64,000 bases of DNA, taken from the sequence record ON286972. One strand, given 5' to 3'. Position 1 is the stretch's first letter. Each line of letters begins with the position of its first letter. The DNA is from Escherichia phage A4. Under the pieces are notes generated by a model that saw nothing but the letters and a program-made list of their open reading frames with translations, searched no databases and was not told where the DNA came from. Both the position numbers and the translations under genes were made by a program. Positions 4,577 to 64,000 of the stretch are shown piece by piece.

Positions 4577-4608
4577 GAACACACCATTATCGAAGAAGGA
4601 AGTAAATC

Positions 4609-8953: not shown

Positions 8954-8997
8954 TAGTTCAGTACTGTCCATGTGGCAGTACTTTTTATGGAGACTAT

Positions 8998-10198: not shown

Positions 10199-10200
10199 CT

Positions 10201-13197: not shown

Positions 13198-13529
13198 TGG
13201 ACTTAAAACCAATTGTAGTTAACAAATATAAAGAACCATATGATGTGTATATTGGTCGTGGGTCTAAATGGGGAAATCCATTTACCCACATTAATGACAA
13301 ACAAACAAAGGCAGAGTTTATAGTTCCGACACGAGAAGAGTCGATTGAGAAGTTCAGAGAGTATCTTATCCAAAGAATTGAAAATGGTGAGGTTACTATC
13401 GAAGAACTACTTGAATTGGCTGGGAAGCGTCTTGGGTGCTTTTGTAAGCCAAAATCATGTCATGGTGATGTTCTTGTAGAAATAGTGAGTGCAATATTAG
13501 ATGAATTACCAGACGATAATCAAGGATGA
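13194..13529 (+). CDS. DUF4326-like protein
   Basis: [12 protein letters not shown] ... [11 protein letters not shown] pattern. Confidence 0.45.
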
Positions 13530-23525: not shown

Positions 23526-23609
23526 TATTATTGAATATTGGTCTAAATGGGTCTAAAAAATCCACTTAGACCAATAAATACCCAATAATAACTAATTTAA
23601 GGATGGATT

Positions 23610-37643: not shown

Positions 37644-37976
37644 ATGCTAAATCTAGTTATTCAAGGTAATGTTGATATTACTCCAGCAATCCATGACGCA
37701 ATTCATCAAGAAGCAAACACTCTAAATAAATTTAGTGATTCTTCAGTACTGAATATTGGTGTTCATGTGAAAAAAGAGCATAAGACACAGTACGCAGTAA
37801 CTTTAACATCAGGTGGTAAGTCTGTTACTGCCGATGATGCAGATTTATACAAGGCGATTGTCGATTCATTCGAAAAAATGGAAACTGTATTCAGTAAAGA
37901 CAAAAGCATTAAATTGCACCGCCGAAACCATCCAGACCGTCCAGTTGTAGTTGATGTAACTGACGAAGAAGAGTAA
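37644..37976 (+). CDS. hypothetical protein
   Basis: 110-aa ORF, AAGGAAGGTGA ribosome-binding site. Confidence 0.45.
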   Translation: MLNLVIQGNVDITPAIHDAIHQEANTLNKFSDSSVLNIGVHVKKEHKTQYAVTLTSGGKSVTADDADLYKAIVDSFEKMETVFSKDKSIKLHRRNHPDRPVVVDVTDEEE

Positions 37977-37982
37977 TATAAT

Positions 37983-38012
37983 AAAGGGACAGATTAATTC
38001 TGTCCCTTTTCT
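37983..38012 (+). terminator. rho-independent terminator
   Basis: GGGACAG-loop-CTGTCCC then TTTT. Confidence 0.55.
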
Positions 38013-38027
38013 TATGGAGTTTTAATT

Positions 38028-38441
38028 ATGAATTATGCTTGGATGGAAATTGTAAAATCTCTCGTATCAACACATGATGTTGATTTACCAGATAGTCTAG
38101 TGTTTAATAGATGGTACTATCCAAATCCAGAGGACTGTAGGGTTGGAATTGGATTTTTTATTAATGATAAATCTAATTTGATTGGATTAATTGAAGATAT
38201 GAAATCCAACGCAGTATCAATCTCTATTGAGTTTAATGAAGACCACATAAAATACTACGACAATAAAATGGCAGAAGATGATGATGTTATAATCCCTGTA
38301 GATATAGACGAAGCTTCATTTTTTCAGTTATCATTGATTTATGATCTATCTAACATTACTTATGATAATGTGAAAGACCTTTTTATATTGTACAATAAAA
38401 TGTATAATTACTTTTTAAGACCTTTTTATATTGTACAATAA
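38028..38441 (+). CDS. hypothetical protein (C-terminus encoded by tandem repeat)
   Basis: 137-aa ORF; last ~20 codons lie inside the 43-bp tandem duplication. Confidence 0.4.
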   Translation: MNYAWMEIVKSLVSTHDVDLPDSLVFNRWYYPNPEDCRVGIGFFINDKSNLIGLIEDMKSNAVSISIEFNEDHIKYYDNKMAEDDDVIIPVDIDEASFFQLSLIYDLSNITYDNVKDLFILYNKMYNYFLRPFYIVQ

Positions 38442-49480: not shown

Positions 49481-50164
49481 ATGGCTACTATGCTAGATCG
49501 ATATGGCGTTCCGCTTGCTGGTGGTGGTCGTATTTCAATGAAACAACCAAAAGCAAAATATAAATTCCGTGTAATTTTCTTTGGTTTTGGTGCCAATGAT
49601 GATGGCAACATGATTACACTAGATACAAACACTGTTGGTGCAGTATCTGTATCGCATGAAAACGTAACTGTTCATAGTTATAACAGTTCCGCACACTATA
49701 AAGGCAAATATACTTGGGATGCGATTGAAGTTGCTTTCCGTGATTCAGTTGGTAATGCTTCAGCAAAAGCACTTTACAACCAAATGCGTAAAGAATTCAA
49801 CTACTATAGTCAAGAATCTCGTATGACTGATTCCCAGTTTAAATTTGAAATGTGGATTCAAGAACTAGATGGTTCTAACAGCGAAAATGCAACAAACCTT
49901 TTTGAAGGTACTCTAAGTACTTGGGTTTGTCAGGGTTGCTTTATTGAATCCAGCAACTTTGGTGATTGGGATTACTCTTCAAGCGAAGCACAAGTTATTA
50001 CAATGAGTGTTCAACCAGATGGTTGTGCTAAGTTGGGTCCAAACGGTGAAGCATTCGGTGATGAAGTTACTGGTTTCGGTAACCCAAGTACTGCATCTTC
50101 TATTAGTGGTGCACAAACCAACATTAGTAGTACTACACTACCTGATACAAACTTCTTTGATTAA
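49481..50164 (+). CDS. tail tube-like protein, paralog 1
   Basis: YGVPLAGGGRISMKQPKAKYKFRVIFFGFG parallels next gene; position after sheath. Confidence 0.45.
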   Translation: MATMLDRYGVPLAGGGRISMKQPKAKYKFRVIFFGFGANDDGNMITLDTNTVGAVSVSHENVTVHSYNSSAHYKGKYTWDAIEVAFRDSVGNASAKALYNQMRKEFNYYSQESRMTDSQFKFEMWIQELDGSNSENATNLFEGTLSTWVCQGCFIESSNFGDWDYSSSEAQVITMSVQPDGCAKLGPNGEAFGDEVTGFGNPSTASSISGAQTNISSTTLPDTNFFD

Positions 50165-50181
50165 TTAAAGATACTTCTAAA

Positions 50182-50209
50182 GCCTCGAAACTATTTCGGG
50201 GCTTTTTTT
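50182..50209 (+). terminator. rho-independent terminator
   Basis: GCCTCGAAA-CTA-TTTCGGGGC then TTTTTTT. Confidence 0.55.
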
Positions 50210-50251
50210 ATGCTAAATAAAGTATAATACCTTAAATTAAAAGAGGTTGCT

Positions 50252-51028
50252 ATGGCAAAAAACATGATTAGTAAATATGGCGTTCCATTACCATCGGGAA
50301 GAAATAAAACAATGCTACAACCTAAAGCTAAGTATAAATTTAGAGTTATTGTTTATAATTTCGGTACTGATATTGATGAGCGTGATCACATCGCATTAGA
50401 TGTTGATAAAGTTGATAGACCAACAGTAACATTCAGTACTCATAAGTTGAACCATTTTACTACCAATACTACATATATTGGTAATCATAACTGGGAACCC
50501 ATCACACTAACAATTCGTGATTCAATCGGTAATGAAAGTGCTAAAGCATTGTCTAGACAGTTACAAAAACAATTAGATTTTCAAAGACGTATTACCTCCA
50601 GAAGTGAACAAGACTATGGTTCGTATAAATTTGGTATGGTTATTCAAATGCTAAATGGACGTAACACAGATGATAGTATTGAAGATTTGGCAAGAAATAC
50701 GGCTGTTTCTGCTGCAACCGCAGTGACAAATAATGGTGGGTTAGTTAACGCAGTAGATCAATTCATCGGCGGCTCCAACTATAATAGTGCTGGTGTAATG
50801 GAATACTTTGTTCTTACAGGGTGTATCATCACCAATATTAGTTACGATTCATTGGAATATAGCTCCAGTGCACCAGTAACTATGGATATTACAATTAAGC
50901 CTGATAATTGTATTCAATTTGATAATATTGAAGAAATGTATAGTACTCGCATTAATTCATTACTACCAGAAAAAGTTAATCAGGGACTAGATATCATTGA
51001 CCGTGTATTCGGTAATATAGGTTTTTAA
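50252..51028 (+). CDS. tail tube-like protein, paralog 2
   Basis: YGVPLPSGRNKTMLQPKAKYKFRVIVYNFG. Confidence 0.45.
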   Translation: MAKNMISKYGVPLPSGRNKTMLQPKAKYKFRVIVYNFGTDIDERDHIALDVDKVDRPTVTFSTHKLNHFTTNTTYIGNHNWEPITLTIRDSIGNESAKALSRQLQKQLDFQRRITSRSEQDYGSYKFGMVIQMLNGRNTDDSIEDLARNTAVSAATAVTNNGGLVNAVDQFIGGSNYNSAGVMEYFVLTGCIITNISYDSLEYSSSAPVTMDITIKPDNCIQFDNIEEMYSTRINSLLPEKVNQGLDIIDRVFGNIGF

Positions 51029-51038
51029 GGAGAGTACT

Positions 51039-53152
<2,114 letters not shown>

Positions 53153-53180
53153 CTTAAACGACCATTAATGGAGTTATTAA

Positions 53181-53711
53181 ATGAACAAACTACAACAAAT
53201 TCTAACAGAAAATAAACCTGTATATGAATATCGTGTCAAATTTGCATTTGAACCTAGTACTGAACAATTGAGTAAAGTTACCCAACGTCTAGTAGATCGC
53301 TATGATGCTTTCGAAGTTGGTGCTCTGAAGAAAACTATTTTCATGGAAAAACCACTAGACTTTTATGAACTAGATTGTGGTGAAATCTGGATGTTTGATT
53401 TCAAATGCAATCGTGGCGTACAGTCTAATGTACTAATGTATGAAATTGGAAACCTTCTATCTGTTACTGAAGCACTTATTCGTGTTCGCGGTAAAGATGA
53501 ACCACGTCAAATTGAAATGTCCATCAGTGAAGATGACGTTGATTTTGACGAAATTCGTGTTATCGGAAAAGATTTCGGTGATGCAGTAGATAGTACTGGT
53601 ATTTCTGGTCAAGAACGTGCTGATAAAGCAGTTGAAGACGCAAAAGAAGAGATTAAACGTGATAATAAATACTCTCAATATATGAGTGCTGGTTTTGGTA
53701 AAAAGGAATAA
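53181..53711 (+). CDS. hypothetical protein
   Basis: 176-aa ORF. Confidence 0.45.
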   Translation: MNKLQQILTENKPVYEYRVKFAFEPSTEQLSKVTQRLVDRYDAFEVGALKKTIFMEKPLDFYELDCGEIWMFDFKCNRGVQSNVLMYEIGNLLSVTEALIRVRGKDEPRQIEMSISEDDVDFDEIRVIGKDFGDAVDSTGISGQERADKAVEDAKEEIKRDNKYSQYMSAGFGKKE

Positions 53712-53714
53712 ACG

Positions 53715-54266
53715 ATGAGTATACTTAATGAAATGTTTGAGTATGAGGACAATGAACTGAATGAAGCTCGTCCTTATAGTCGTTCTCAAAGTGCTATTGA
53801 TAGTGCTAAAGGGAAAGTAAAAGGTATGTTCGGTAGTGGGCAGATTGAGCAAGGTGCACAGGAAGTTGGTGCAGAAGCTAACCGCCTATGGGCTGAATTT
53901 AAACGATATATTGGTAAAAAATATGGTAAAGCACAAAGCTCTGTTCCATATGCTGATGTTGCACAATTCTTCAAAGGTAATCAATTGGATGTGAAATTCC
54001 TCGGTAATAATCAACGCCGTTCTTTTACACCAAAAGATGTTGGTAACGCTCTATTACAGGCTGCTCGTGAATACATGAACACATATCGTGATCAAGAAGA
54101 GCCAGCACCAGCTAAACCACAAAGTGAACCAGCAGCAGCACCACAAGCTTCAAATGAACCACCACAACCAGCGGCGAATCCATCTACCCAATCACAAGGT
54201 ATTGCTGGTATTCTACAAGGTCTAAGTCCTGCTGAACGTGAGCAACTACTTCGAATGATTTCGTAA
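53715..54266 (+). CDS. hypothetical protein with Pro/Ala/Gln-rich C-terminus
   Basis: 183-aa ORF. Confidence 0.45.
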   Translation: MSILNEMFEYEDNELNEARPYSRSQSAIDSAKGKVKGMFGSGQIEQGAQEVGAEANRLWAEFKRYIGKKYGKAQSSVPYADVAQFFKGNQLDVKFLGNNQRRSFTPKDVGNALLQAAREYMNTYRDQEEPAPAKPQSEPAAAPQASNEPPQPAANPSTQSQGIAGILQGLSPAEREQLLRMIS

Positions 54267-54278
54267 GGGGATAATACA

Positions 54279-55751
54279 ATGCTTAAATTATTCAGTACTG
54301 AAAGTACGGTAGTTCCTAATGGGTATATCTATACTTCCCATACTGGAGCAAAATATGTCTTCTTAGAAGGTATGTGGTTCAATGATAGTAATATGATGAT
54401 GGTTGATCCACAAAAATATCCAAATATGTATGCTTGTGCTCGACAACAAATTGTTGAGCACAACAATAAATCAAACACTGCATTTAAAATTGGCGAAAAC
54501 TATCTTCACAATGGAAAAGAGTGTACGTTCATCGGTGAAAGCCGCTTCCATAGTGATGACGGTACTATTCTTTCTGAAAGTGAAGTGATTACAGAACTAA
54601 TGGGTGATGAACAACGTGTATATCAAGTTTCCAAAGAAACTCTACAAAAAGAGTGGAGTACTTTGAAATTTTATATTCTACCCCCACATGCACAAGATAT
54701 TTCTATCCCAGCAGGTATGGTAGTTCAAGGATATAAGTTTATTCCTAACAGTCATCGCTTTGTTGAACTAAAAAGCGGTCGCCCTGTAAGCCCAGAAATG
54801 ACACGTAAACTAAGTGAAGAAGGTCTTCGCATTGCTCGCCAATTATCTACAAACAATAAACTAATCCCATTGAAATCTGTATTGATTCAAGGTAATGTTC
54901 GTTCTGAATGGAACGGTAAAGAATTTTGCGATAATGACGGTAATGTGGTAGTATCTGAACAAGGCTCGAAAGCTATTTTCCAAGCATATTCACAGTTCGT
55001 TAAGGCAAATCCTGAAGATTTTCCTTCTTTAACTGGTGCTAGTACTGGTGAAGAACAACGTTTTGGTTCTGTACCGAAGCCAGAAAAAGTTACCGAAGCT
55101 GAAGATGAACCAGCAGTTGGTGTACCAGATGGATACCGTTTTACTTCTGGTAAAAACAAAACTTATGCTAAACAACGTGGTGCTTGGTTTGATGTTGAAA
55201 CTAAAAAACAACTAAATTCAGGTGCTGCACAAAGTATTGAGCGTGCTGCACAACAAGCTATTCTTAAACATAACGAATCCGGTGCAATGAAAATCGGAAC
55301 AAAAGTTACTTCTAAGAAAGGCAAAGAATATGTATACGTTGGTGGTGATCGATTCATTGGTCCAGATGGTAAAATGATTCCAAAAAGTGCTGCACAAGCT
55401 ATTCTGGATCGTTTTGAATCTTCTAAATCAGAGAATGAACCTAAACCAAATGACGCACCACAAGAAGAACCAAAAGCACAAGAAGAACCTAAACCTGAAG
55501 CACAGGCTGAACCGAAAGAAGAACCAAAGGAAGAGCCTAAACCAGAACCGACCCCTGAACCAGAAGTTGAGCAAGGGAATGGTATGGAAGCACTTGCATC
55601 ACAAATTAAATCTTCTCCTTATGCGAAAAAGATTACAGTACTGCTAACCCGTGGTGATAAGGTTTCTTTACTAGCCGCTGACATTCTATTAGCTGGTAAT
55701 AAAGATGAAGTAGTGCAGATTTTAAAATCATTAAATAATAATGATGAATAA
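54279..55751 (+). CDS. hypothetical protein with internal duplicated segments and EPK-rich linker
   Basis: 490 aa; recurring G.KY.F.EG / KIGTKVTSKKGKEYVYVGGDRF-like blocks. Confidence 0.45.
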   Translation: MLKLFSTESTVVPNGYIYTSHTGAKYVFLEGMWFNDSNMMMVDPQKYPNMYACARQQIVEHNNKSNTAFKIGENYLHNGKECTFIGESRFHSDDGTILSESEVITELMGDEQRVYQVSKETLQKEWSTLKFYILPPHAQDISIPAGMVVQGYKFIPNSHRFVELKSGRPVSPEMTRKLSEEGLRIARQLSTNNKLIPLKSVLIQGNVRSEWNGKEFCDNDGNVVVSEQGSKAIFQAYSQFVKANPEDFPSLTGASTGEEQRFGSVPKPEKVTEAEDEPAVGVPDGYRFTSGKNKTYAKQRGAWFDVETKKQLNSGAAQSIERAAQQAILKHNESGAMKIGTKVTSKKGKEYVYVGGDRFIGPDGKMIPKSAAQAILDRFESSKSENEPKPNDAPQEEPKAQEEPKPEAQAEPKEEPKEEPKPEPTPEPEVEQGNGMEALASQIKSSPYAKKITVLLTRGDKVSLLAADILLAGNKDEVVQILKSLNNNDE

Positions 55752-55764
55752 CTAAAAGGATTTA

Positions 55765-56715
55765 TTGAAAATGGCAAAAAAAATTAATGAAGCACAGGTT
55801 AAAATTGATATTGCTGGTCTAGAATCTGATGATCTAGAAGCACTATCCCGTATGCTTGCACTAGCTGGTCAAGCTGAAAAGCAATCATCCGTAGCACCTA
55901 CTGTTTCTCCAATCGCTCCACTTGACTTCGGTTCTTTTGGTGGTTCAGCGGAAGAACCAGAAGTTGTTGCTCCAGAAATGGGTGCTGATGTAGCACCTGT
56001 TCCAGAAATTGGTGAAGAAGACCCACTAGCACAAGCTGTTGATGATCTATCTGGTTCAGTAACTGATTTCGGTGCTGATGCAGAAGGTGAAGCTGACATT
56101 CCAGTTATCGATGTTGAAGCTCCTGGTGAAGAAGATGAACTTTCTCTTGACATGAGTGGTCAACCTAAGCTAGAATCTACTCTATCAGATGAAGACGAAG
56201 AAGTTATTGAAGAAGAATTCGATTTCGGTCGTATGATGTCTCTAGCTGGTCTTCCTGTTACTGAAGCAGTAGATGAAGATGAAGAAGAAATTGAAGAAGA
56301 AGTTACTGAATCTCAAATCCTTCCTGACCTAAGTCTAGAAGAAGAGAGTCCAGCACTTGACACAACTGATTTTGGTCCTTTCCGTTCTGAATACGATGCT
56401 GTTCAAGATGGTCAAGCTAAAACCAATGGTGTTGAAGGTGATAACTTCATCGTAGTTCCTAAAGGAAACCAATTCTACTGGAGACGTGTTGTTCAAGAAG
56501 AACTTGACAATGTTCCAAATCCAGAAGAATATGATAATGAAGGCAATGTACATCGTGTACATGAATTCAAGCCAAAAGCACCTGGTACTGCTCTAGGTGA
56601 TAACCCACTTAATGTTTACGAAGCTGAAGAAGAAGAGTCTGAAGAAGACGAATCTGTAGAAGACATTTTTGAAAGTCTCCAAAGTAAGTACAATAAGTTT
56701 CTAGGAGATAAGTAA
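55765..56715 (+). CDS. highly acidic protein
   Basis: 316 aa, Asp/Glu-rich. Confidence 0.45.
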   Translation: MKMAKKINEAQVKIDIAGLESDDLEALSRMLALAGQAEKQSSVAPTVSPIAPLDFGSFGGSAEEPEVVAPEMGADVAPVPEIGEEDPLAQAVDDLSGSVTDFGADAEGEADIPVIDVEAPGEEDELSLDMSGQPKLESTLSDEDEEVIEEEFDFGRMMSLAGLPVTEAVDEDEEEIEEEVTESQILPDLSLEEESPALDTTDFGPFRSEYDAVQDGQAKTNGVEGDNFIVVPKGNQFYWRRVVQEELDNVPNPEEYDNEGNVHRVHEFKPKAPGTALGDNPLNVYEAEEEESEEDESVEDIFESLQSKYNKFLGDK

Positions 56716-56716
56716 T

Positions 56717-57118
56717 ATGTCATACAGCTATCGTGAACTAGTGGAATCACTAGATGCGATTATGGCAGAAGAAGAAGTTCCTCAAGAAGAAAATGGTATC
56801 GTTGTCCAAGAAGATTCGGACAACGTTATCGTTGATTTACTAAAGGAAATCACTACATCTTTAGTTGCTTTAGTTGATAAAGCAAAAGAAGAAGGTTCTG
56901 ACCATAAAGAAATCGCAGAAAAACTTAAAAAAGCATGTGACATTTTGGCAGATGTGGAATATAATGATGACTTAGAAGCGAAAGACAGTACTAAAGAAAT
57001 TGAAGAAGATTTCGGTACTGAAGATATGGCTCCTAAAGTTGACAGTGAAGGTCATCGTAGCTATAAAGTTAAAGATGCTCCTTCTTATGCTGCCAGACAA
57101 GGTTTTGTGGGGATGTAA
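56717..57118 (+). CDS. acidic hypothetical protein
   Basis: 133-aa ORF, ATGTAATATG junction. Confidence 0.45.
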   Translation: MSYSYRELVESLDAIMAEEEVPQEENGIVVQEDSDNVIVDLLKEITTSLVALVDKAKEEGSDHKEIAEKLKKACDILADVEYNDDLEAKDSTKEIEEDFGTEDMAPKVDSEGHRSYKVKDAPSYAARQGFVGM

Positions 57119-57120
57119 TT

Positions 57121-57465
57121 ATGATACCACAACCCACTAACAGCACTGAATTTCAAAATGAAGTACTTATAAAAGTTAAAGAAGTACATGAATCGGACGC
57201 TGAAATCACTGACAGAATGCTTCTGATGTCTATTTTTGAAAACTTCAGAACTGGTGGTGGTTTGAGGCTTAGTAAGTATGGATTTATGATTTGTGAAGAA
57301 AATAATCTTTATGAATTTACAAAAATCCCCTTGCTAAGAGAGTTCAAAAGCTCTATAATATTTACATCGCTTGATAGAATATGTAGAAGTCCTTATTATG
57401 TTGATGGCTACTACATATATCTCTCCGACGCAATGATAGTTACTGAATTAACATTGTGTCGGTGA
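57121..57465 (+). CDS. hypothetical protein
   Basis: 114-aa ORF. Confidence 0.4.
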   Translation: MIPQPTNSTEFQNEVLIKVKEVHESDAEITDRMLLMSIFENFRTGGGLRLSKYGFMICEENNLYEFTKIPLLREFKSSIIFTSLDRICRSPYYVDGYYIYLSDAMIVTELTLCR

Positions 57466-57529
57466 TGATTTCAAGCAGTTATTTTCGATGCATATGTAGA
57501 ACGCTTCGAAAATAAAAATGAAAAAGATG

Positions 57530-57557
57530 TTGACAGTACAGATTAACGTGATATAAT
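57530..57557 (+). promoter_or_regulatory. sigma70-type promoter P1 (TTGACA-16-TGaTATAAT)
   Basis: TTGACA 57530-57535, extended -10 GTGATATAAT ending 57557, A-tract upstream. Confidence 0.55.
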
Positions 57558-57622
57558 GAACGTCACGAAGCAAGATTTCAAAATCACAAGATGTGAGATT
57601 GAAAAAGAAAGAAAAAAAGTTG

Positions 57623-57650
57623 TTGACAAGCCTGAACGATGTGATATAAT
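57623..57650 (+). promoter_or_regulatory. sigma70-type promoter P2 (TTGACA-16-TGaTATAAT)
   Basis: near-identical to P1, 93 bp downstream; A-tract upstream. Confidence 0.55.
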
Positions 57651-57817
57651 GACCACATCAAGACGGCAAACAAGATTGACCTTTTTAAACACACGGATGA
57701 TTCACTGAAGATAAGGAACTGATAAGTTAAAATACTTTTAACACAGTTCCTTTACTTTTGCCAACGGATTGGTTATAATATAAACCTAGTTTTTTATCCA
57801 ACAAAAGGAAAATACAC

Positions 57818-59143
57818 ATGAGCGAACAACAAGATATCCTGAACGTAAAACTGACTCCTAAGAAAGCAAAAATGGCTATGGCTCTGGCAGATAAAATTCA
57901 GGATAGTCTGATGATTTGGGGTAGCCCTGGTATCGGTAAGTCTGCGATTGCACGTCAATACGCTGACGAGAACTATCCTCTTCGTAAGGATAACTTGGCT
58001 AAAATCGAGTTCATGAAACAACAAATTGAAGTTGATACTGAAAATGCTGATGCACTTCGCCGCGAACTGGCAGCGTTTGAAGCAAAACTGATTGACCAAG
58101 ACACTAACTTCATCGACTTCCGTCTGTCACAGATTGAACCAAGTGACCTACGTGGTATCCCAGTCCCTGAAAAAGTGTTCCTGGATATGGATGGCAAACA
58201 ACTGATTGAATCTGAACTGGAAACAGCTAAAGATTACATTGCTGAAACAGCAGTTGTATGGGCAGCACCTAAAGTACTGAAACTGTCTCCAGATTGGAAA
58301 GGTGTTATCCTGTTTGACGAAATTAACTCTGCTATGCCGATTGTACAGGCAGCGTCTTATCAGCTAATCCTCGACCGTTGTGTTGGTGAGATGAAGCTAC
58401 CTAAGACTGCACTGATTCTCGCAGCAGGTAACCGTGAAACTGATGGCGGCGTAACGTTCTCTCTGGCAACGCCACTACGTGACCGTATGACCCACATCGA
58501 AATGGTTCCTTACCATCAAGATTGGATTGACGATTACGCGATTGCTAAGCGTTTGAACCCAGGTACTGTTGCGTTCATCAACAACACTGGTGCTAAGTAC
58601 TTCAACACCCTTAGCCCACAAGATCCTTCTCACAGTGGTGGTACTTCTCCACGTTCATGGGAAGCAGTAGCACGCTACGAAGACCTGAAGAAAGGCAACA
58701 ACATTGATAAAGAAGTGTTCCGTGCTCTAATCGCTGGTCGTGTTGGTGAAGGTGTAGCAACTGAATATATCGAATACGTAGAAAACGTATCTAAACTACC
58801 AGATACTATGTCCATCCTACAGGGTGAGATTAAAGAGATTGATGCAACGCTGGATATTTCTGCGAACTACTTCATCTCTCTGAATCTGGTTTATAAAATT
58901 ATCGACCTGTACAATGAGAAGCAAGAACAACGTCTTCCAGTTGAAGAGTGGGGCAAGCTGTGCAACAACTTCATCACCTTCCTGGACCGTAACTTCTCCG
59001 AAACTCAGGCAGAACTGGCAGTACTAGCAATTCGTACCATCACTCAACATAAGGTAGCGATTGCGTACAAAGATGTTCCAGCGTTCAAAGACTTCGTTAT
59101 GAAGTACTCTGACCTAGTACGCAAAGCACGTTCTCTTGGTTAA
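57818..59143 (+). CDS. AAA+ ATPase (MoxR/CobS-like)
   Basis: Walker A WGSPGIGKS, Walker B ILFDEINSA; CTG/CGT-rich codon usage unlike neighbours. Confidence 0.65.
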   Translation: MSEQQDILNVKLTPKKAKMAMALADKIQDSLMIWGSPGIGKSAIARQYADENYPLRKDNLAKIEFMKQQIEVDTENADALRRELAAFEAKLIDQDTNFIDFRLSQIEPSDLRGIPVPEKVFLDMDGKQLIESELETAKDYIAETAVVWAAPKVLKLSPDWKGVILFDEINSAMPIVQAASYQLILDRCVGEMKLPKTALILAAGNRETDGGVTFSLATPLRDRMTHIEMVPYHQDWIDDYAIAKRLNPGTVAFINNTGAKYFNTLSPQDPSHSGGTSPRSWEAVARYEDLKKGNNIDKEVFRALIAGRVGEGVATEYIEYVENVSKLPDTMSILQGEIKEIDATLDISANYFISLNLVYKIIDLYNEKQEQRLPVEEWGKLCNNFITFLDRNFSETQAELAVLAIRTITQHKVAIAYKDVPAFKDFVMKYSDLVRKARSLG

Positions 59144-59217
59144 TAACTAAAAGAATGTTTGACAAGAAGGATGCCACATGGTATCCTTCTTTTATCTTAA
59201 CTAAACGAGGAAATATC

Positions 59218-60621
59218 ATGTCCGATAAGAAATTTAGCGACGTAACACCACAACTCCAGAAAGAATGCCAAGACCGTTTGATTCTTGCTCGTACTTCTCT
59301 GATGTTAACTGCTCCATTCTTTGGTGTACTGGCTTCACGTCTGCGTCCAGTTGCAAACAATACATGGTGTCGTACCTTAGCAGTAGATGGTAAACATTTA
59401 TTCTATAACGTAGAATTTATCATGGGTATTCAAGACCCAAGCAAGAAAGAAGCATACGAAGAAGCAATTCGTGAGAAGCATCCTGAAGTAACTGAAGAAC
59501 AATTGAAAGAAATGACCGAAGGTTTGACTGATGAAAACCTGATTGCAGTTATCTGTCATGAAATTCTTCACTGTGCATACGATCACTTCCTTCGTCGTGG
59601 TATGCGTGACCCACAACGCTACAACCGTGCAGCAGACTACGCAATCAACCAAATTATTGTTCGTGAAAAAATTGGTAAGATTCAAAGTCAATGGTTGTAT
59701 GATAAGAAGTATGATGGTATGACCGCCGAAGAGATTTATATTCTTCTAGAAGAAGAAGATAAACAAGATCAAGATGAAGGTGAAGGACAACCACAATCTG
59801 GTAGTGGTGAAGGTGAAGGTAAATCACGCGGTACTTTTGGTGATATCCAAAATGGTAAAGGCAAAGGCACTACCATTGACCAACACGATGTACCACAAGA
59901 TGGTGAAGGTGGTGCATCTGAAGCACAAAAACGTGAATACATGGACGATTTCAAAACAGCAATGATGAATGCTGCTCGTGCAGGTGGTACTCCTGCTGAA
60001 ATCGCTCGTATGATCAATAACTTTAAAGAACCAAAAATTGACTGGCGTTCTAAACTTCAACGTACTCTTCGTAGCTGGTTGAAGTCCGATGCGACCTATC
60101 AAAGCCCAAGCCGCCGTTCGTGGGGTGCTGGTTTTGGTTCTAACGGTTCATTCTACGGGAATCCAATCTTCCCAGGTATGAAACCAGATGACGATATTGA
60201 TATTGCAATTGCACTCGATGCATCAGGCTCTATCAGTGAAGATATGCTTCGTGATTTCATCAGTGAAGTACTAGGCATCACTAAACAATTCAAGCAGTTT
60301 AAAATTCGTATCATGACATTTGATACTGAAGTTTATACTGTGATGGATTATAAAACTGGTGAAGAACGTAAGATTCTTGAATATCCAGTTAAAGGTGGTG
60401 GCGGTACTGACTTTGAAGCAGTTTGGGTTCACATGAAGCATGACAATTATAAGCCTAAACAGCTTATCATGTTTACCGATGGTGAACCGTGGCAGTCATG
60501 GGGTGATCCTAACTACTGTAAAACACTGTTTGTGATTCACAGTAACCCGAACAAAGTAGCACCATTTGGTGAAACTGTTCACTACGAATATGAAGCGGAC
60601 AAAAAACGCCAACGTTCGTAA
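59218..60621 (+). CDS. vWA-domain protein with N-terminal HExxH metallopeptidase-like motif (CobT/DUF2201-like)
   Basis: HEILH motif; MIDAS-like DASGS; start set at ATG 59218 with GAGGAAATATC upstream. Confidence 0.6.
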   Translation: MSDKKFSDVTPQLQKECQDRLILARTSLMLTAPFFGVLASRLRPVANNTWCRTLAVDGKHLFYNVEFIMGIQDPSKKEAYEEAIREKHPEVTEEQLKEMTEGLTDENLIAVICHEILHCAYDHFLRRGMRDPQRYNRAADYAINQIIVREKIGKIQSQWLYDKKYDGMTAEEIYILLEEEDKQDQDEGEGQPQSGSGEGEGKSRGTFGDIQNGKGKGTTIDQHDVPQDGEGGASEAQKREYMDDFKTAMMNAARAGGTPAEIARMINNFKEPKIDWRSKLQRTLRSWLKSDATYQSPSRRSWGAGFGSNGSFYGNPIFPGMKPDDDIDIAIALDASGSISEDMLRDFISEVLGITKQFKQFKIRIMTFDTEVYTVMDYKTGEERKILEYPVKGGGGTDFEAVWVHMKHDNYKPKQLIMFTDGEPWQSWGDPNYCKTLFVIHSNPNKVAPFGETVHYEYEADKKRQRS

Positions 60622-60641
60622 AAATAAATATAGAGAACGAT

Positions 60642-60670
60642 TCGTCGTTCTCTTTTATTTTATAATTGGG
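60642..60670 (+). terminator. rho-independent terminator
   Basis: AGAGAACG-loop-CGTTCTCT then TTTTATTTT. Confidence 0.55.
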
Positions 60671-60695
60671 ACAACCCAATTAACTATGATATAAT
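60668..60695 (+). promoter_or_regulatory. promoter (GGGACA-16-TGaTATAAT)
   Basis: AATTGGGACAA..ATGATATAAT, same architecture as 29680-29707. Confidence 0.45.
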
Positions 60696-60728
60696 GGAAA
60701 TCGTAATAACATACATGGAGAGTAATAT

Positions 60729-60971
60729 ATGAGTACTGAAAACAATGCACAAGACGAAGTAATCCTAGACCTAGTTGACCTAATCAACGCTGCTCGTATT
60801 ATGGAATCTGCGGTTGCACGTAATGCGTTTCAAGTTGATGAACTAGTGAACGTAGCACCAATTGTTTCCAAGTTCGTTAAATTTGCTGATAAAGCACTTG
60901 CTGATATCAAAGAACGTGAAGAAGCTGCTGCTCAAGCACAAGATACCGCTGGTACAGAAGGGGAAGAATAA
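60729..60971 (+). CDS. hypothetical acidic protein
   Basis: 80-aa ORF, GGAGAG upstream. Confidence 0.4.
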   Translation: MSTENNAQDEVILDLVDLINAARIMESAVARNAFQVDELVNVAPIVSKFVKFADKALADIKEREEAAAQAQDTAGTEGEE

Positions 60972-61627
60972 TGGCTGCTATTCGTCACACAGGTGTAATT
61001 CGTAATACTGGTTCTCGTGTTTTCGTTGTTTGGCGTTCACTTCCAGATGATCATGATCATTGTCTAGTTGTGTATCGTGACTCACTTCCAGAAGCATATG
61101 TATCTGCTGTAACCGATTTAGTTATGGGTCGTGGACAAGCTTCTGTTGAACTTTGGGAAGTTATGCATCAAGTAGGTTATCTCGATGGTCGTAAAATGCT
61201 AGATGTTCTTCACAATCTACAATATCTACGTAAAGTCCGTACTTGTGATATTGACATGCACACTGGCGGTAACAACAAGATTTCACTTGATGTACTGAAT
61301 GATGCAATCGACGGTAATGAAAGTAAAAAACATGAAGATGGTAAAGTAAAAGATTACAACCCATTCAATCCACAAGTTCAAGATACAAAAGTCGAAGATG
61401 AAACTATTGTTGATGAACTACTAAAAACTGCTGCAAAATATGATCAACTAGCTAAAGAGCATTATGAGCGTGCTTATAACCTAGAACCTTCTCTTCGTCC
61501 CAACGAAACGAATGTGAAAACTGATTCTGATAAGAAAGTTTTTTACATTGAACTTCCAGAAGGTATTTCTCAAACCAAAGCAATTGAGAAACTAAAACTT
61601 GTTTTTGCAGAGCGTAAGAATGGCTAA
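60971..61627 (+). CDS. hypothetical protein
   Basis: 218-aa ORF. Confidence 0.45.
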   Translation: MAAIRHTGVIRNTGSRVFVVWRSLPDDHDHCLVVYRDSLPEAYVSAVTDLVMGRGQASVELWEVMHQVGYLDGRKMLDVLHNLQYLRKVRTCDIDMHTGGNNKISLDVLNDAIDGNESKKHEDGKVKDYNPFNPQVQDTKVEDETIVDELLKTAAKYDQLAKEHYERAYNLEPSLRPNETNVKTDSDKKVFYIELPEGISQTKAIEKLKLVFAERKNG

Positions 61628-61925
61628 AGTTACTAGAGAAGATATCATTCTCAAAATAACTGAAGAAAGACAGAAACAAATAGATAATCCAAATACATTA
61701 TCTGATACACTTAAAACAAAGAATGATTGGGCTTCCTTATGTGCCTATTATCTCTTCGAAGGGGCAACTCGCCCCGATAAGCATGTATCATTCGATGAAT
61801 TTAGAGAGTCCTTAATCAAAGCTGGTGCTGTCATTTTGGCAGCCCTTGAAACCAGTTTCGCATTAGAGGATGAGAAATTACAAGAATTAATGTCTGCTTT
61901 GGAACATAAGAATGACGATAAATGA
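61620..61925 (+). CDS. hypothetical protein
   Basis: start set at ATG 61620 overlapping previous stop. Confidence 0.4.
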   Translation: MAKVTREDIILKITEERQKQIDNPNTLSDTLKTKNDWASLCAYYLFEGATRPDKHVSFDEFRESLIKAGAVILAALETSFALEDEKLQELMSALEHKNDDK

Positions 61926-62502
61926 ACTTGATGAAGCAATCAAGGGATTAACTAATACATTTTATAGCGGTGGTGCACAAGGTGCAGACCGCTTTTTCAC
62001 TTTATATGCTATGGAAAATGGTTTTAATGTAATTAACTTTTCATTCAAAAATCATAATCATAGTGTTGATGAAAGTACTATATTAGAAATCCCATCTTAT
62101 ATTTTGAATGATAGTTCTATTCTACATCAACTAAACATGGCATGTTATTCATTACAACGCCGTGTACCTAAACCTGGCTCGTATGTTTATAATCTATTAG
62201 CTCGTAATAGATATCAAATTTTAAACACAGAGAGAGTTTATTGTATGGCTTCACTTGTTTCACCTACTCAAGTTAGTGGTGGTACTGCATGGGCTGTACA
62301 AATGTATATTGACAGTACTGATAATCCTGAAATATACTGCTATGACATTAATGACAGAAAAGTATATTCATATAATCCAGTACTAAAAGAATTCGAAGAA
62401 ACCGCATCAGTACCTAAGCCGCATGGAAATTGGACGGGAATAGGCTCAAGAAATGCACAAGAAAAGCATATGATGCACTTTACAACATTTTTTCAAGGAT
62501 GA
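61912..62502 (+). CDS. Rossmann-like nucleotide-binding protein with GGAxGxD motif (SLOG/DprA-like?)
   Basis: FYSGGAQGADRF near N-terminus; assignment tentative. Confidence 0.3.
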   Translation: MTINELDEAIKGLTNTFYSGGAQGADRFFTLYAMENGFNVINFSFKNHNHSVDESTILEIPSYILNDSSILHQLNMACYSLQRRVPKPGSYVYNLLARNRYQILNTERVYCMASLVSPTQVSGGTAWAVQMYIDSTDNPEIYCYDINDRKVYSYNPVLKEFEETASVPKPHGNWTGIGSRNAQEKHMMHFTTFFQG

Positions 62503-62505
62503 ACA

Positions 62506-63435
62506 ATGAAACAACTACAAGAACTATATCAAAAAATTCTGGATGAAGGCGTAGAAAGTACTGATCGTACAGGTGTAGGTACTATCAAACTAATCGGTCA
62601 ACAAATGCGTTTTGACCTTCAACAAGGCTTTCCAGCAGTGACAACCAAACGTTTAGCTTGGAAAGCAATGACTTCAGAATTATTATGGTTCATTGAAGGT
62701 TCTCATGATGAGCGTCGCTTGTGTGAAATTCTACACGGCACTCGTGATTGGGAAAAGAAAACAATTTGGACAGACAACTACCTTAATCAAGGTGTAGCTC
62801 TTGGATATTCTAATGGTGAGCTTGGACCAGTTTATGGTAAGCAATGGCGTGAATGGGAAGATTATAAATTCAGTGCCAGTACTGTAGAAATTCAGGAATT
62901 GAAAGATAAAGGTTATAAAGTAATTGATTATACTGGTTCACATGGTGTTGTTATGCGTCGTGTTACTGACCAACTAAAACAAGTCATTGAAGGTATCAAA
63001 GCAGATCCATACGGTCGTCGTCACATTCTAAGTGCCTGGAACGTTGGTGAGCTTGATGATATGACTTTACCACCCTGTCATAGCTTCGTACAGTTTTGTG
63101 TCGTACAGGGTAAGCTAAGCTGTATTCTGCATCAACGTTCAGCAGATCTATTTTTGGGCGTACCATTTAACATTAGTAGCTATTCACTACTAACACATAT
63201 GATTGCTCAAATTACAGGTTTAGATGTTGGTGAGTTTATTTGGAATGGTGGTGATTGTCACATTTACAAAAACCACGTTGAACAAGTAAAAGAACAACTT
63301 CAACGTGAACCACGTGAATTACCAGAACTATGGCTAGATCCTTCAATTACCGATATTGAAGATTTTACAATGGATTCTTTCAAACTTTTGAATTACAATC
63401 CAATGCCAACAATTAAAGCACCAATGGCTGTATAA
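62506..63435 (+). CDS. thyA: thymidylate synthase
   Basis: ThyA-like N-terminus, active-site LPPCH, 309 aa uninterrupted. Confidence 0.8.
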   Translation: MKQLQELYQKILDEGVESTDRTGVGTIKLIGQQMRFDLQQGFPAVTTKRLAWKAMTSELLWFIEGSHDERRLCEILHGTRDWEKKTIWTDNYLNQGVALGYSNGELGPVYGKQWREWEDYKFSASTVEIQELKDKGYKVIDYTGSHGVVMRRVTDQLKQVIEGIKADPYGRRHILSAWNVGELDDMTLPPCHSFVQFCVVQGKLSCILHQRSADLFLGVPFNISSYSLLTHMIAQITGLDVGEFIWNGGDCHIYKNHVEQVKEQLQREPRELPELWLDPSITDIEDFTMDSFKLLNYNPMPTIKAPMAV

Positions 63436-63442
63436 TAGAAAA

Positions 63443-63467
63443 GGGAGACAAATGTCTCCCTTTTTTT
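63443..63467. terminator. bidirectional rho-independent terminator
   Basis: GGGAGAC-AAAT-GTCTCCC flanked by A-run upstream and T7 downstream, between convergent genes. Confidence 0.6.
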
Positions 63468-63930
63468 ATTTCACGGTTACTAATGTTCTTCCTGCAAAAC
63501 GAACATCAGGAGAAGAAGGAATACTATAAACTACACCAGTTAATGTAAACTTAACACTATCAACATCAACTTTAACAAATTCATCAGTTGTTACTTGTTC
63601 TTGAATTTCAGCATTAACTATATCAGTTTCTGGAACTGTCAGTCTGTAATATGCACCATCAAGTACCCAATTATCAACAGTGAATAATGTAGTTCTTACT
63701 GTACCAGAACCAATCGGAACCCATTTACCATCAACTTTCTGCATTGATGTTCTATTCTGTTCAGAGTACGCAATCATACCATCAACACCTTCACTGTCAT
63801 TAACAGTTGTTAGTACTGGCAATTGGATACCATAACGGTTAATACGTGTACGCAACACATTACTGTCATATACAGATAAATCCGCATAACCACGAACATC
63901 CATACGCAATTCACCGTTTAGTAGTTTCAT
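63466..63930 (-). CDS. hypothetical protein (only clear minus-strand gene; N-terminus may extend)
   Basis: 154-aa ORF convergent with thyA, ends at the shared terminator. Confidence 0.45.
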   Translation of the reverse strand: MKLLNGELRMDVRGYADLSVYDSNVLRTRINRYGIQLPVLTTVNDSEGVDGMIAYSEQNRTSMQKVDGKWVPIGSGTVRTTLFTVDNWVLDGAYYRLTVPETDIVNAEIQEQVTTDEFVKVDVDSVKFTLTGVVYSIPSSPDVRFAGRTLVTVK

Positions 63931-64000
63931 ATTAATATCGTTGGTAACGTGTGCAAATCTAAATGAATTACCACTGGTTAGCAGGATTCCATTAAAATTA

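What the first reader, a model, noticed from the sequence alone, without database searches (positions are those of the whole stretch)
57530..60621. Tandem near-identical consensus promoters driving an AAA+ / vWA-metallopeptidase pair with atypical codon usage
Two copies of an A-tract + TTGACA-16-TGaTATAAT promoter lie 93 bp apart, followed by a hairpin (about 57711-57755). They precede an AAA+ ATPase and a vWA protein with HEILH and DASGS motifs. Both genes use CTG/CGT/GAA-rich codons unlike neighbouring genes, suggesting horizontal origin or tuning for very high expression. Such ATPase-vWA pairs act as chaperone or remodelling machines, and their role in phages is unresolved.
Basis: partly seen in the sequence, partly recalled or inferred. 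Interest (0 to 1): 0.55.

Follow-up and report, generated by a model that had tools for sequence, protein, structure and literature searches.

The report
Phage ATPase–vWA cassette tuned for expression
A known pair of jumbo-phage genes, a MoxR-like ATPase and a peptidase-vWA partner, sits in its own transcription unit with duplicated strong host-type promoters, host-optimised codons and a conserved terminator-like leader, so the genes are ordinary but their expression wiring is more elaborate than reported.

Summary
The window is an Asteriusvirus-like (RaK2-like) jumbo coliphage. Two perfect TTGACA-16-TGaTATAAT promoters with A-rich upstream tracts lie 93 bp apart. They precede a MoxR-like AAA+ ATPase (57818-59143) and a zincin-vWA protein whose true start is 59218 (59218-60621). 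These two genes have the highest E. coli codon adaptation of 75 window ORFs.

The pair is not new. It is the N4 gp24/gp25 family (PHROG 1297/1314, Pfam DUF2201_N+DUF2201), and it was already noted in jumbo phages by Iyer et al. 2021.

Synteny across at least five genera, and a codon shift toward host-optimal codons rather than a general GC shift, favour selection for expression over horizontal origin.

The new detail is the wiring:
- The promoters are separated from the ATPase gene by a terminator-like hairpin and a small YGGA-loop hairpin. Both are conserved with compensatory changes across five genera.
- A third, weaker promoter overlaps the hairpin tail.
- A second terminator-like hairpin separates the ATPase and vWA genes in every lineage examined.
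- Promoter copy number varies from one in the Eneladus/Mimas leaders to two in Asteriusvirus and K64-1 and three in SP27.

Whether the leader acts as an attenuator, a small RNA or only an insulator is unresolved, as is the biochemical role of the pair.

The parts
57508..57529 (+). A-rich UP-element-like tract of promoter P1
   Evidence: 65% A in the 23 nt upstream of the -35 hexamer; sequence read.
57530..57557 (+). Promoter P1: TTGACA, 16-nt spacer, TGaTATAAT
   Evidence: 12/12 match with TG. Conserved in Asteriusvirus relatives and in RaK2/K64-1; the -10 hexamer is TACAAT in 121Q.
57576..57604 (+). Hairpin in the P1-proximal transcript (TTTCAAAATCACA / TGTGAGATTGAAA)
   Evidence: Inverted repeat I3, 85% complementary; predicted in the MFE fold. 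Function unknown.
57601..57622 (+). A-rich UP-element-like tract of promoter P2 (AAAAAAAGT at about -46 to -38)
   Evidence: 70% A. The resemblance to the proximal UP subsite consensus (Estrem 1998) is my own inference.
57623..57650 (+). Promoter P2: TTGACA, 16-nt spacer, TGaTATAAT
   Evidence: 12/12 match with TG. Both hexamers and TGa are kept in all six Asteriusvirus sequences aligned. The unit is exactly duplicated (94 bp, 100%) in phage SP27.
57691..57702 (+). Conserved A-Y-GGA-T motif 5' of the leader hairpin (ACACGGATGATT)
   Evidence: The GGA and flanking A are invariant in the Eneladus/Mimas leader alignment and present in Asterius and Alcyoneus. Two of the eight ACGGAT on the + strand of the window lie in this leader.
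57713..57760 (+). Leader helix H1: terminator-like hairpin (AAGGAACTG...CAGTTCCTT) plus TACTTTTG tail
   Evidence: dG -13 kcal/mol. Compensatory changes across 5 genera. The homologue is annotated as an ARNold terminator in G17 and in CBB as 'Torf215'. The BF homologue is flagged by the terminator scan; the window copy is not flagged.
57751..57779 (+). Promoter P3: TTTACT, 17-nt spacer, TATAAT, overlapping the H1 tail
   Evidence: 10/12 match. Conserved in Asteriusvirus; TATCAT in K64-1; TGgTATAAT in Hallingskeid; absent in BF, GAP32, CBB and XbC2.
57760..57773 (+). Leader helix H2: small hairpin GCCAA-CGGA-TTGGT with a YGGA tetraloop
   Evidence: Three of its five pairs show changes on both sides across genera; listed among NGGA-loop hairpins.
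57818..59143 (+). MoxR-like AAA+ ATPase, 441 aa, 49.65 kDa (N4 gp24 family, PHROG 1297)
59164..59198 (+). Intercistronic terminator-like hairpin with T-run between the ATPase and vWA genes
   Evidence: 12 pairs followed by TTATCTT. A hairpin plus T-run at the same position, with unrelated sequence, is present in G17, K64-1, BF and the Vibrio phage. Annotated as terminator 'Torf216' in CBB.
59218..60621 (+). Zincin metallopeptidase-vWA protein, 467 aa (N4 gp25 family, PHROG 1314, DUF2201_N + DUF2201)
60632..60663 (+). Terminator closing the cassette (AGAGAACGA...TCGTTCTCT plus TTTATTTTAT)
   Evidence: Terminator scan. Homologous terminators in G17, K64-1 and BF.
60666..60695 (+). Next promoter (TTGGGA, 18-nt spacer, TGaTATAAT) for the downstream genes
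   Evidence: A TGnTATAAT promoter follows the terminator in G17, K64-1 and BF, and in CBB as 'Porf_218'. This is the usual terminator-then-promoter order, in contrast to the promoter-then-terminator order upstream of the ATPase.

Best explanation
This is the self-contained, non-late expression cassette for the N4 gp24/gp25-type MoxR-like AAA+ ATPase and its zincin-peptidase/vWA partner in a RaK2-like jumbo coliphage.

Shown by sequence and comparison:
- Two consensus sigma-70 promoters with A-rich upstream tracts arose by tandem duplication of a unit of about 93 bp. The unit comprises the A-tract, the promoter and the first part of the transcript.
- They are followed by a leader containing a conserved terminator-like helix (H1) and a small YGGA-loop helix (H2).
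- A weaker third promoter overlaps the H1 tail.
- The ATPase gene is the most host-codon-adapted ORF in the window.
- A conserved terminator-like hairpin follows the ATPase gene, then the vWA gene (second most adapted), then a terminator.

Inferred:
- Host RNA polymerase transcribes the unit before or independently of the T4-like late programme.
- H1 insulates the cassette from upstream late transcription and attenuates P1/P2 transcripts.
- The intercistronic hairpin lowers vWA output relative to the ATPase, giving abundant ATPase hexamer and sub-stoichiometric adaptor.
- Promoter duplication and codon optimisation both reflect selection for high ATPase output.

Inferred by analogy with NorQ/NorD, CbbQ/CbbO, BchI/BchD and RavA/ViaA: the ATPase ring remodels a protein substrate that the vWA MIDAS site recruits, and the fused HExxH peptidase cleaves it. 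The substrate is unknown.
For: Promoters.

Conservation and copy-number change of the promoter unit: two in Asteriusvirus; P1 plus a weaker TTGAAT-17-CATAAT in K64-1; three in SP27 through a 100% identical 94-bp duplication; an independent 34-nt exact repeat at 135 bp spacing in a Vibrio phage.

No T4-like late motif (TATAAATA or ATAAATA) occurs in 57466-57817, whereas such motifs precede structural genes at 14164, 23574, 46365 and 49436.

H1 and H2: 90.6% of cells are paired against 28-54% when partners are slid. Six pairs change on both sides. Covariation score 0.324 against 0.120, with 0 of 500 shuffles reaching it. A covariance model built only from Eneladus/Mimas leaders finds window 57679-57787 (27.7 bits, E 0.005).

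The intercistronic hairpin is conserved in position with unrelated sequences.

Codon adaptation. The same holds in G17 and K64-1 (CTG/Leu 0.76, CAI 0.505), and GC3 is the highest of the annotated neighbouring genes in the Vibrio phage.

Protein identity.

The pair is conserved in 834 phage records and on distant phage-like contigs.

The phAPEC6 orthologue, a 49.5 kDa ATPase, was detected by virion mass spectrometry with 6 peptides, while the vWA protein is not in the part of the table I read. This is consistent with an abundant ATPase (PMC7247149).

N4 gp24/gp25 are middle transcripts (PMC4193335).
Against: No transcript data exist for any Asteriusvirus in the searched literature, so promoter activity, timing and termination efficiency are all unmeasured.

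The window's H1 tail (ACTTTTG) is an imperfect U-tract, and the simple terminator scan did not flag it.

In Eneladus and Mimas phages the only recognisable promoter lies upstream of a strong-looking terminator. This means either substantial read-through or a regulatory mechanism I cannot identify.

The spacer is 16 nt rather than the optimal 17.

Virion detection of the ATPase could also mean it is a true virion or assembly component (Iyer et al. 2021) rather than simply abundant.

CAI ranks are from 75 ORFs of one 64-kb window, not the whole genome. The host is inferred from relatives.
Confidence: 0.6

Rival explanations
1. The tandem promoters plus H1 constitute a small-RNA gene, about 105 nt from P2 and about 200 nt from P1. 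The terminated transcript is the functional product: a trans-acting sRNA, or a protein-titrating RNA carrying GGA motifs of the kind bound by CsrA/RsmA. The ATPase is then transcribed mainly from P3 or by read-through.
For: The promoter-then-terminator order is conserved across five genera, whereas the downstream cassette boundary uses the ordinary terminator-then-promoter order.

In Mimasvirus the terminator is canonical, with a 10-11 bp stem and a six-T run, and lies about 30 nt after the start site. This predicts an RNA of about 60 nt.

The first nucleotides of the transcript (TYAAGACAG) and an AYGGAT motif are conserved.

Asteriusvirus acquired P3 downstream of H1, which uncouples ATPase expression from H1.

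The promoter unit, not the gene, is what has been amplified.
Against: No Rfam family matches.

NGGA-loop hairpins are not enriched in the window: 15 observed against 19 expected.

H2 and its GGA lie downstream of the terminator, so they would not be part of the short RNA.

Eneladus and Mimas phages have no recognisable promoter between H1 and the ATPase gene, so read-through must occur there.

No target or binding partner could be tested.
Confidence: 0.2
2. H1 is simply the terminator of the upstream late structural operon. The promoters happen to lie between the stop codon and that terminator. The arrangement has no regulatory meaning, and P1/P2 transcripts read through a leaky hairpin.
For: The CBB authors list the homologous hairpin as the terminator of the upstream ORF ('Torf215'), and G17 annotates it as a terminator.

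The covariance model of the leader also picks up ordinary gene-end terminators in the window, at 37954-38035 and 50150-50236. H1 therefore looks like the phage's generic terminators.

The upstream genes are virion proteins.
Against: This does not explain why the promoter stays upstream of the terminator in five genera even though the promoter class has been replaced: TGAAACG-type in Mimas and Eneladus, TTGACA-type in Asterius and Alcyoneus.

It also does not explain the conserved GGA motif and H2 flanking H1.
Confidence: 0.15
3. The atypical codon usage reflects recent horizontal acquisition of the ATPase-vWA pair from a GC-richer donor.
For: The ATPase has the highest GC (0.444) and GC3 (0.405) of the window ORFs, and GC rises locally to 0.43-0.47. 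The cassette is bounded by its own promoters and terminators, like a moron.
Against: The pair is present at the same syntenic position in Asteriusvirus, Alcyoneusvirus, Eneladusvirus and a Vibrio jumbo phage, with the same gene upstream of the ATPase in Mimasvirus. The family is a core gene pair of N4-like phages.

The bias recurs in diverged orthologues and tracks host-optimal codons.

T- and A-ending optimal codons (CGT, GGT, TCT, ACT, GAA, CCA, GCA) are kept rather than replaced by GC-ending ones.

No mobility genes flank the pair.
Confidence: 0.05

Closest known systems
Bacteriophage N4 gp24 (ATPase) / gp25 (vWFA) core gene pair; PHROG 1297 / 1314
   Same: Homologous proteins. RaK2 annotates its ATPase as 'N4 Gp24-like' and K64-1 annotates 'gp25-like'. 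tblastn hits N4-like phages at 27-29% identity. The genes are adjacent and under non-late regulation; N4 gp24/25 are middle transcripts.
   Different: The jumbo-phage ATPase is about 80-100 aa longer than the roughly 360-aa ATPases of distant homologues. It carries a predicted helical insert between Walker A and Walker B. N4 middle genes are transcribed by the phage RNAPII, whereas here the promoters are of the host sigma-70 type.
MoxR AAA+ / vWA chaperone pairs (NorQ-NorD, CbbQ-CbbO, RavA-ViaA, BchI-BchD)
   Different: The vWA protein carries an N-terminal HExxH zincin domain (DUF2201_N) that those partners lack. Pfam AAA_3 is matched only below threshold and AAA_5 is not matched. No substrate is known.
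MoxR-vWA(+metallopeptidase) pair of 'group 2.2' jumbo phages (Iyer, Anantharaman, Krishnan, Burroughs, Aravind 2021, PMC7824862)
   Same: The same gene pair and domain architecture in the same phage group. This finding is an instance of it.
   Different: That paper proposes a virion-assembly and proteolytic-processing role by analogy with the Acidianus two-tailed virus. It does not describe the promoters, the leader, the intercistronic terminator or the codon bias. The non-late promoters seen here fit a late-only role less easily.
RpoD-like early promoters with UP-like elements, and the TGAAACG-type promoter class, of phages CBB and GAP32 (PMC5259590)
   Same: P1 and P2 match the described RpoD-like class with an UP-like element. 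The orthologous leader promoter in CBB (TGAAACGTCTAAAAAAATTGTGGTATAAT) fits the paper's second class (Table S6).
   Different: The tandem duplication and the promoter-then-terminator leader upstream of the ATPase are not described there. The CBB leader promoter is not among the Table S6 entries I saw. It lies more than 100 bp upstream of the gene, outside the authors' search range.
Promoter-proximal terminator switches (lambda PR'-tR'/6S RNA with Q antitermination; attenuator leaders) and tandem rrn P1-P2 promoters
   Same: A strong constitutive-looking promoter followed within 60-110 nt by an intrinsic-terminator-like hairpin ahead of the genes. Tandem strong promoters with UP elements.
   Different: No antiterminator protein, qut/nut/put-like element or alternative antiterminator structure was identified. 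The resemblance is architectural only and rests on my own knowledge of those systems.

Membership tests
MoxR-class AAA+ ATPase | Walker A GxxxxGK[ST] and Walker B hhhhDE | tested here: met
   GSPGIGKS at residues 35-42 and ILFDE at 164-168. G38, K41, S42 and E168 are invariant in 45 sequences.
MoxR-class AAA+ ATPase | Sensor 1 Asn, arginine finger and sensor 2 Arg | tested here: met
   N205 (AAGN), R223 (PLRDR) and R279 (SPRSW) are invariant. Assigning these roles to those residues is an inference from motif position.
MoxR-class AAA+ ATPase | Match to the Pfam AAA_3 / AAA_5 models above the curated threshold | tested here: not met
   AAA_3 scores 17.7 bits against a cutoff of 27. AAA scores 21.0 against 21.2. 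AAA_5 is not reported. NCBIfam gives no meaningful hit.
MoxR-class AAA+ ATPase | Fold closest to MoxR members | tested here: inconclusive
MoxR-class AAA+ ATPase | Neighbouring vWA-domain partner gene | tested here: met
   The vWA gene lies 74 nt downstream. The pairing is kept in all relatives and on distant contigs.
DUF2201_N + DUF2201 (zincin-vWA) proteins | Pfam PF13203 and PF09967 above the curated threshold | tested here: met
   123.8 bits against a cutoff of 23.2, and 73.9 bits against 26.4. All 120 listed homologues carry PF13203, and all but one truncated entry also carry PF09967.
DUF2201_N + DUF2201 (zincin-vWA) proteins | HExxH zinc-binding/catalytic motif | tested here: met
   H114, E115 and H118 are invariant; H123 is at least 90% conserved. 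Peptidase activity cannot be tested here.
DUF2201_N + DUF2201 (zincin-vWA) proteins | vWA fold with a complete MIDAS (DxSxS...T...D) | tested here: met
N4 gp24/gp25 phage gene pair | Homology to both proteins and adjacency | tested here: met
   PHROG 1297 E 6.5e-106 and PHROG 1314 E 1.6e-125. tblastn hits N4-like phages, including one annotated 'N4 gp24-like'.
N4 gp24/gp25 phage gene pair | Non-late (middle) transcription | tested here: inconclusive
   Only promoter types could be read: sigma-70-like, with no late motif in the leader. No transcript data were found.
Sigma-70 promoter with extended -10 and UP element | Consensus -35 and -10 hexamers, 16-18 nt spacer, TGn, A/T-rich region at -40 to -60 | tested here: met
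   The spacer is 16 nt; the optimum is 17.
Sigma-70 promoter with extended -10 and UP element | Activity in vivo | not testable with these tools
   Needs 5'-end mapping or reporter fusions.
Intrinsic (Rho-independent) terminator, for H1 | Stable stem-loop immediately followed by a U-run | tested here: inconclusive
   In the window: dG -13 kcal/mol, tail ACTTTTG, not flagged by the scan. The BF homologue is flagged. The Mimas homologues have a six-T run. Annotated by ARNold in G17 and CBB.
Intrinsic (Rho-independent) terminator, for H1 | Base pairing maintained by compensatory change | tested here: met
   A-U, C-G and G-C occur at one pair, and G-C and A-U at another. 92.5% of H1 cells are paired. 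The alignment had its loops excised by hand.
CsrA/RsmA-binding RNA | Multiple GGA motifs, preferably in hairpin loops | tested here: inconclusive
   H2 presents CGGA in a loop. ACACGGAUGA resembles the SELEX consensus RUACARGGAUGU, which I recalled from memory. However, such hairpins are not enriched in the window (15 against 19 expected), and binding cannot be tested.
Recently transferred genomic island | Atypical composition plus patchy presence among relatives | tested here: not met
   The composition is atypical, but the pair is syntenic in every relative examined.

The most novel reading that the evidence does not exclude
The conserved unit of promoter, about 30-100 nt of transcript, terminator-like H1 and GGA-loop H2 upstream of the ATPase is a functional RNA element of RaK2-like jumbo phages. 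It would be either a conditional attenuator read through in response to a phage or host factor, or an abundant short RNA with its own trans function, possibly engaging the host GGA-binding regulator CsrA. Recurrent tandem amplification of its promoter would then reflect selection on the RNA dose rather than only on ATPase output.
Probability: 0.25. Interest if true: 0.6.

Novelty: new member of a known kind. Interest (0 to 1): 0.38.

Why it matters
The MoxR-like ATPase / zincin-vWA pair is among the most widely conserved phage gene pairs of unknown function. Its ATPase has homologues in 834 phage records, the pair is a core gene pair of N4-like phages, and it is present throughout RaK2-like jumbo phages.

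Several features indicate that the ATPase is needed in large amounts and in excess over its vWA-peptidase partner, and probably before late assembly:
- non-late, host-type promoters that have been repeatedly duplicated;
- the highest host codon adaptation in the window;
- terminator-like hairpins that should set the ATPase-to-vWA ratio.

This constrains hypotheses about the pair's role and gives concrete handles for experiments: promoters, leader mutants and catalytic residues. The conserved promoter-then-terminator leader is a candidate regulatory RNA in a phage group with no published transcriptome.

Tried and rejected
- Rfam at a permissive E-value over 56500-61500 gave only two chance-level hits.
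- tRNA/tmRNA scan of the window found none.
- PADLOC and NCBIfam gave no meaningful hits for either protein.
- PDB sequence searches with single sequences and with profiles gave only generic P-loop and weak vWA hits.
- PA5oct ncRNA003 was checked as a possible homologue of the leader. It is not next to an ATPase homologue.
- A second genomic copy of the leader, suggested by 'two places per record', turned out to be P1 matching P2.
- The leader covariance model found no further specific copies in the window, only ordinary terminators.
- Leader peptide: short ATG-initiated ORFs overlap the GGA motif in several phages, but their frame, length and position are not conserved and they lack Shine-Dalgarno sequences (read). 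Rejected.
- Anti-Shine-Dalgarno pairing (inverted repeats I4 and I5): the CCTTTT element is not conserved outside Asteriusvirus. Pairing of a pyrimidine-rich terminator tail with a purine-rich Shine-Dalgarno is trivial. Rejected.
- boxA-like antitermination site: BF has GCTCATTAAGA, close to rrn boxA, but this is not conserved in other genera. Rejected.
- Enrichment of GGA-loop hairpins: not found.
- The first CAI calculation used Sharp-Li weights recalled from memory. It was repeated with weights computed from E. coli K-12 ribosomal-protein genes and gave the same ranking.

Full report
**What the window is.** The region 57100-60700 is 88% identical over 98% of its length to Escherichia jumbo phages such as WPEC3, EC.P1 and fEgEco12, and 85% identical to 121Q, PBECO4 and G17. 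All are genus Asteriusvirus, the RaK2-like jumbo myoviruses. Gene order is conserved in Alcyoneusvirus (K64-1, RaK2), Eneladusvirus (Serratia phage BF) and an unclassified Vibrio jumbo phage: head-completion protein, several virion proteins, a small ORF, the ATPase, the vWA protein, small ORFs, a DprA-like protein and thymidylate synthase. In Mimasvirus (GAP32, CBB, XbC2) the upstream gene and the ATPase are adjacent in the same way.

**The observation.** Two TTGACA-16-TATAAT matches with TG at -15/-14 lie at 57530-57557 and 57623-57650. They are the only 12/12 sites in 50000-64000. The 64 kb contains four perfect sites against 0.19 expected, and none of 100 shuffles reached four. Both are preceded by tracts that are 65-70% A. 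They belong to a 52-nt direct repeat, 73% identical, with 93 bp spacing. The hairpin is real: arms at 57708-57721 and 57744-57757, dG -13 kcal/mol. HEILH, DASGS and the Walker motifs are present.

One correction is needed. The vWA gene starts at 59218, as in the annotated relatives. The 59155 ATG lies upstream of an intercistronic hairpin.

**Codon usage.** Weights were computed from 23 E. coli K-12 ribosomal-protein genes plus rpoA (3478 codons).
- The ATPase has CAI 0.634 and the vWA gene 0.594. These are ranks 1 and 2 of 75 ORFs; the others have mean 0.405, sd 0.068 and max 0.562.
- Rare codons (AGA, AGG, ATA, CTA, CGA, CGG, GGA, CCC) occur at 20.5 and 6.4 per 1000 codons, against 58.1 in the background.
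- Resampling synonymous codons from the window background gives z = +15.6 and +9.4 for CAI (those weights were recalled from memory).
- The shift is toward CTG (ATPase 0.56 against 0.08), CGT, AAC, TAC, TTC and ATC, with AGA, AGG, ATA and CGA absent.
- GAA is not distinctive, and CCA, GCA, GGT and ACT are retained.
- The bias recurs in G17 (CAI 0.464 and 0.412) and in K64-1 (0.505 and 0.410; CTG/Leu 0.76). In the Vibrio phage the ATPase has the highest GC3 of the annotated neighbouring genes (0.415). The bias is weak in Serratia phage BF, which uses almost no CTG anywhere.

A bias that persists in orthologues only 48-81% identical, at a conserved syntenic position, and that follows host-optimal codons rather than GC in general, argues for translational selection. 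It argues against recent transfer.

**The proteins.**
- RaK2 and K64-1 annotate the pair as N4 gp24-like and gp25-like. ATPase homologues occur in 834 phage records. Distant homologues (36-38% identity) on phage-like contigs keep an AAA gene nearby, again close to a thymidylate synthase.

**What the literature says.** Iyer et al. 2021 already described this MoxR / vWA-plus-metallopeptidase pair in 'group 2.2' jumbo phages and proposed a role in virion assembly and processing (PMC7824862). gp24 and gp25 are among the 14 core genes of N4-like phages and are middle transcripts in N4 (PMC4193335). In phAPEC6, a 49.5 kDa ATPase (the window protein is 49.65 kDa) was found in virion preparations with 6 peptides (PMC7247149).

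**The wiring, which is the new part.** Alignment of the intergenic region shows that P2 keeps both consensus hexamers and the TGa in all Asteriusvirus sequences aligned, and P1 nearly so.
- Promoter copy number varies. SP27 carries an exact 94-bp duplication that gives three promoters at spacings of about 94 bp. K64-1 and RaK2 have P1 plus a weaker TTGAAT-17-CATAAT.
- The promoter class differs between genera. Eneladus and Mimas phages have one promoter of a different class, TGAAACG-N16-TATAAT. This is the second promoter class described for CBB and GAP32, which is associated there with DNA-synthesis genes.
- The Vibrio phage has an independent 34-nt exact repeat containing TGTTATAAC, at 135 bp spacing.
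- Downstream of the promoter, all five genera keep a terminator-like hairpin (H1) followed by a T-run, then a small hairpin (H2) with a YGGA loop. An AYGGAT motif lies 5' of H1.

I counted base pairs on an alignment of the helix arms from 12 phages, with the loops excised by hand. This procedure leans toward the structure. On it, 90.6% of cells pair, against 28-54% when partners are slid. Six pairs change on both sides. The covariation score is 0.324 against 0.120, and none of 500 shuffles reached it. A covariance model built only from Eneladus and Mimas leaders finds window 57679-57787 (27.7 bits, E 0.005).

H1 is annotated as a terminator in G17 and CBB and is flagged by the scan in BF. The window copy has a weaker tail and is not flagged.

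A third promoter, TTTACT-17-TATAAT at 57751-57779, overlaps the H1 tail in Asterius, Alcyoneus and Hallingskeid but is absent in the other Eneladus and Mimas phages.

After the ATPase stop codon, every lineage has a hairpin plus T-run with unrelated sequences ('Torf216' in CBB). After the vWA gene comes a terminator and then a TGnTATAAT promoter. That is the ordinary terminator-then-promoter order, which makes the promoter-then-terminator order upstream of the ATPase stand out.

No T4-like late motif lies in the leader, while such motifs precede structural genes elsewhere in the window.

**Interpretation.** The best-supported reading is an autonomous, non-late cassette selected for high ATPase output, with lower vWA-peptidase output. 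H1 would act as an insulator and attenuator. Everything about activity, timing and termination efficiency is inferred, because I found no transcript data for these phages.

The main rivals are:
- that the short transcript terminated at H1 is itself the functional product;
- that H1 is merely the upstream operon's terminator.

Horizontal origin is unlikely. The biochemical function remains an analogy to MoxR-vWA chaperone systems, with a fused peptidase.

**Verdict.** The gene pair and the promoter class are already known. The codon optimisation, the recurrent promoter amplification and the conserved promoter-terminator-GGA-hairpin leader are new details of moderate interest.

Noticed in passing
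L006 (Escherichia phage SP27) 554-741: An exact 94-bp tandem duplication (100% identical) of the P2 unit, comprising the A-tract, the promoter and the first ~43 nt of transcript. It gives three promoters in a row at spacings of about 94 bp, roughly nine helical turns.
   Followed up: yes
L009 (Vibrio phage 2.275.O) 5679-5847 and 7294-8805: An independent 34-nt exact repeat containing TGTTATAAC, at 135 bp spacing, lies upstream of the ATPase with a terminator-like hairpin between the copies. A low-GC 504-aa gene (GC 0.316) is inserted between the ATPase gene and the vWA orthologue (8869-10203).
   Followed up: partly
L015 (Pectobacterium phage CBB) 456-484: TGAAACGTCTAAAAAAATTGTGGTATAAT upstream of the ATPase leader fits the CBB paper's 'Promoter 1' motif (Table S6). 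It is not among the entries I saw there. It lies more than 100 bp upstream of the gene, outside the authors' search range. The stop codon of the upstream gene supplies the TGA.
   Followed up: partly
window 4548-4797: Another perfect TTGACA-17-TATAAT promoter with TG drives a 62-aa, very basic ORF (4609-4797, MAKQPKKKEPEVKVKK...). Hairpins follow before the next gene at 4942.
   Followed up: no
window 14164, 23574, 46365, 49436: T4-like late-promoter motifs (TATAAATA or ATAAATA) lie 36-57 nt upstream of large, probably structural, genes. One more (60624) sits immediately before the terminator that closes the vWA gene.
   Followed up: partly
window 57479-57515: A hairpin TTATTTTCGATGC...GCTTCGAAAATAA lies just after the stop codon of the upstream gene and just before the P1 A-tract. 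It is conserved in relatives, with arm changes in RaK2 and 121Q. It is not followed by a T-run on either strand, and its role is unknown.
   Followed up: no
L008 (Serratia phage BF), all 16 genes examined: CTG is almost absent as a leucine codon: 0.00 in 12 of the 16 genes examined and at most 0.10 in the rest. The E. coli and Klebsiella relatives do use it. This may reflect avoidance of a sequence motif or adaptation to the host tRNA pool.
   Followed up: no
window 3065-3082, 13518-13531, 23593-23610, 55753-55764, 62492-62503: Several gene starts have their Shine-Dalgarno AGGA presented in the loop of a short hairpin, for example GAGCACA-AGGA-TGTGCTC at 3065-3082. Overall counts of such hairpins are not above chance.
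   Followed up: partly
phAPEC6 virion proteome (PMC7247149, table read): Both the ATPase orthologue (gp265c, 49.5 kDa) and thymidylate synthase (gp259c) were detected in purified virions. They are therefore either genuine virion passengers or abundant contaminants.
   Followed up: no
window 60666-60695: The promoter after the cassette has a 7-bp palindrome (AATTGGG-ACAA-CCCAATT) in its spacer. This echoes the H2 hairpin in the spacer of P3. In both places a terminator is followed by a small hairpin and then a -10 box.
   Followed up: no
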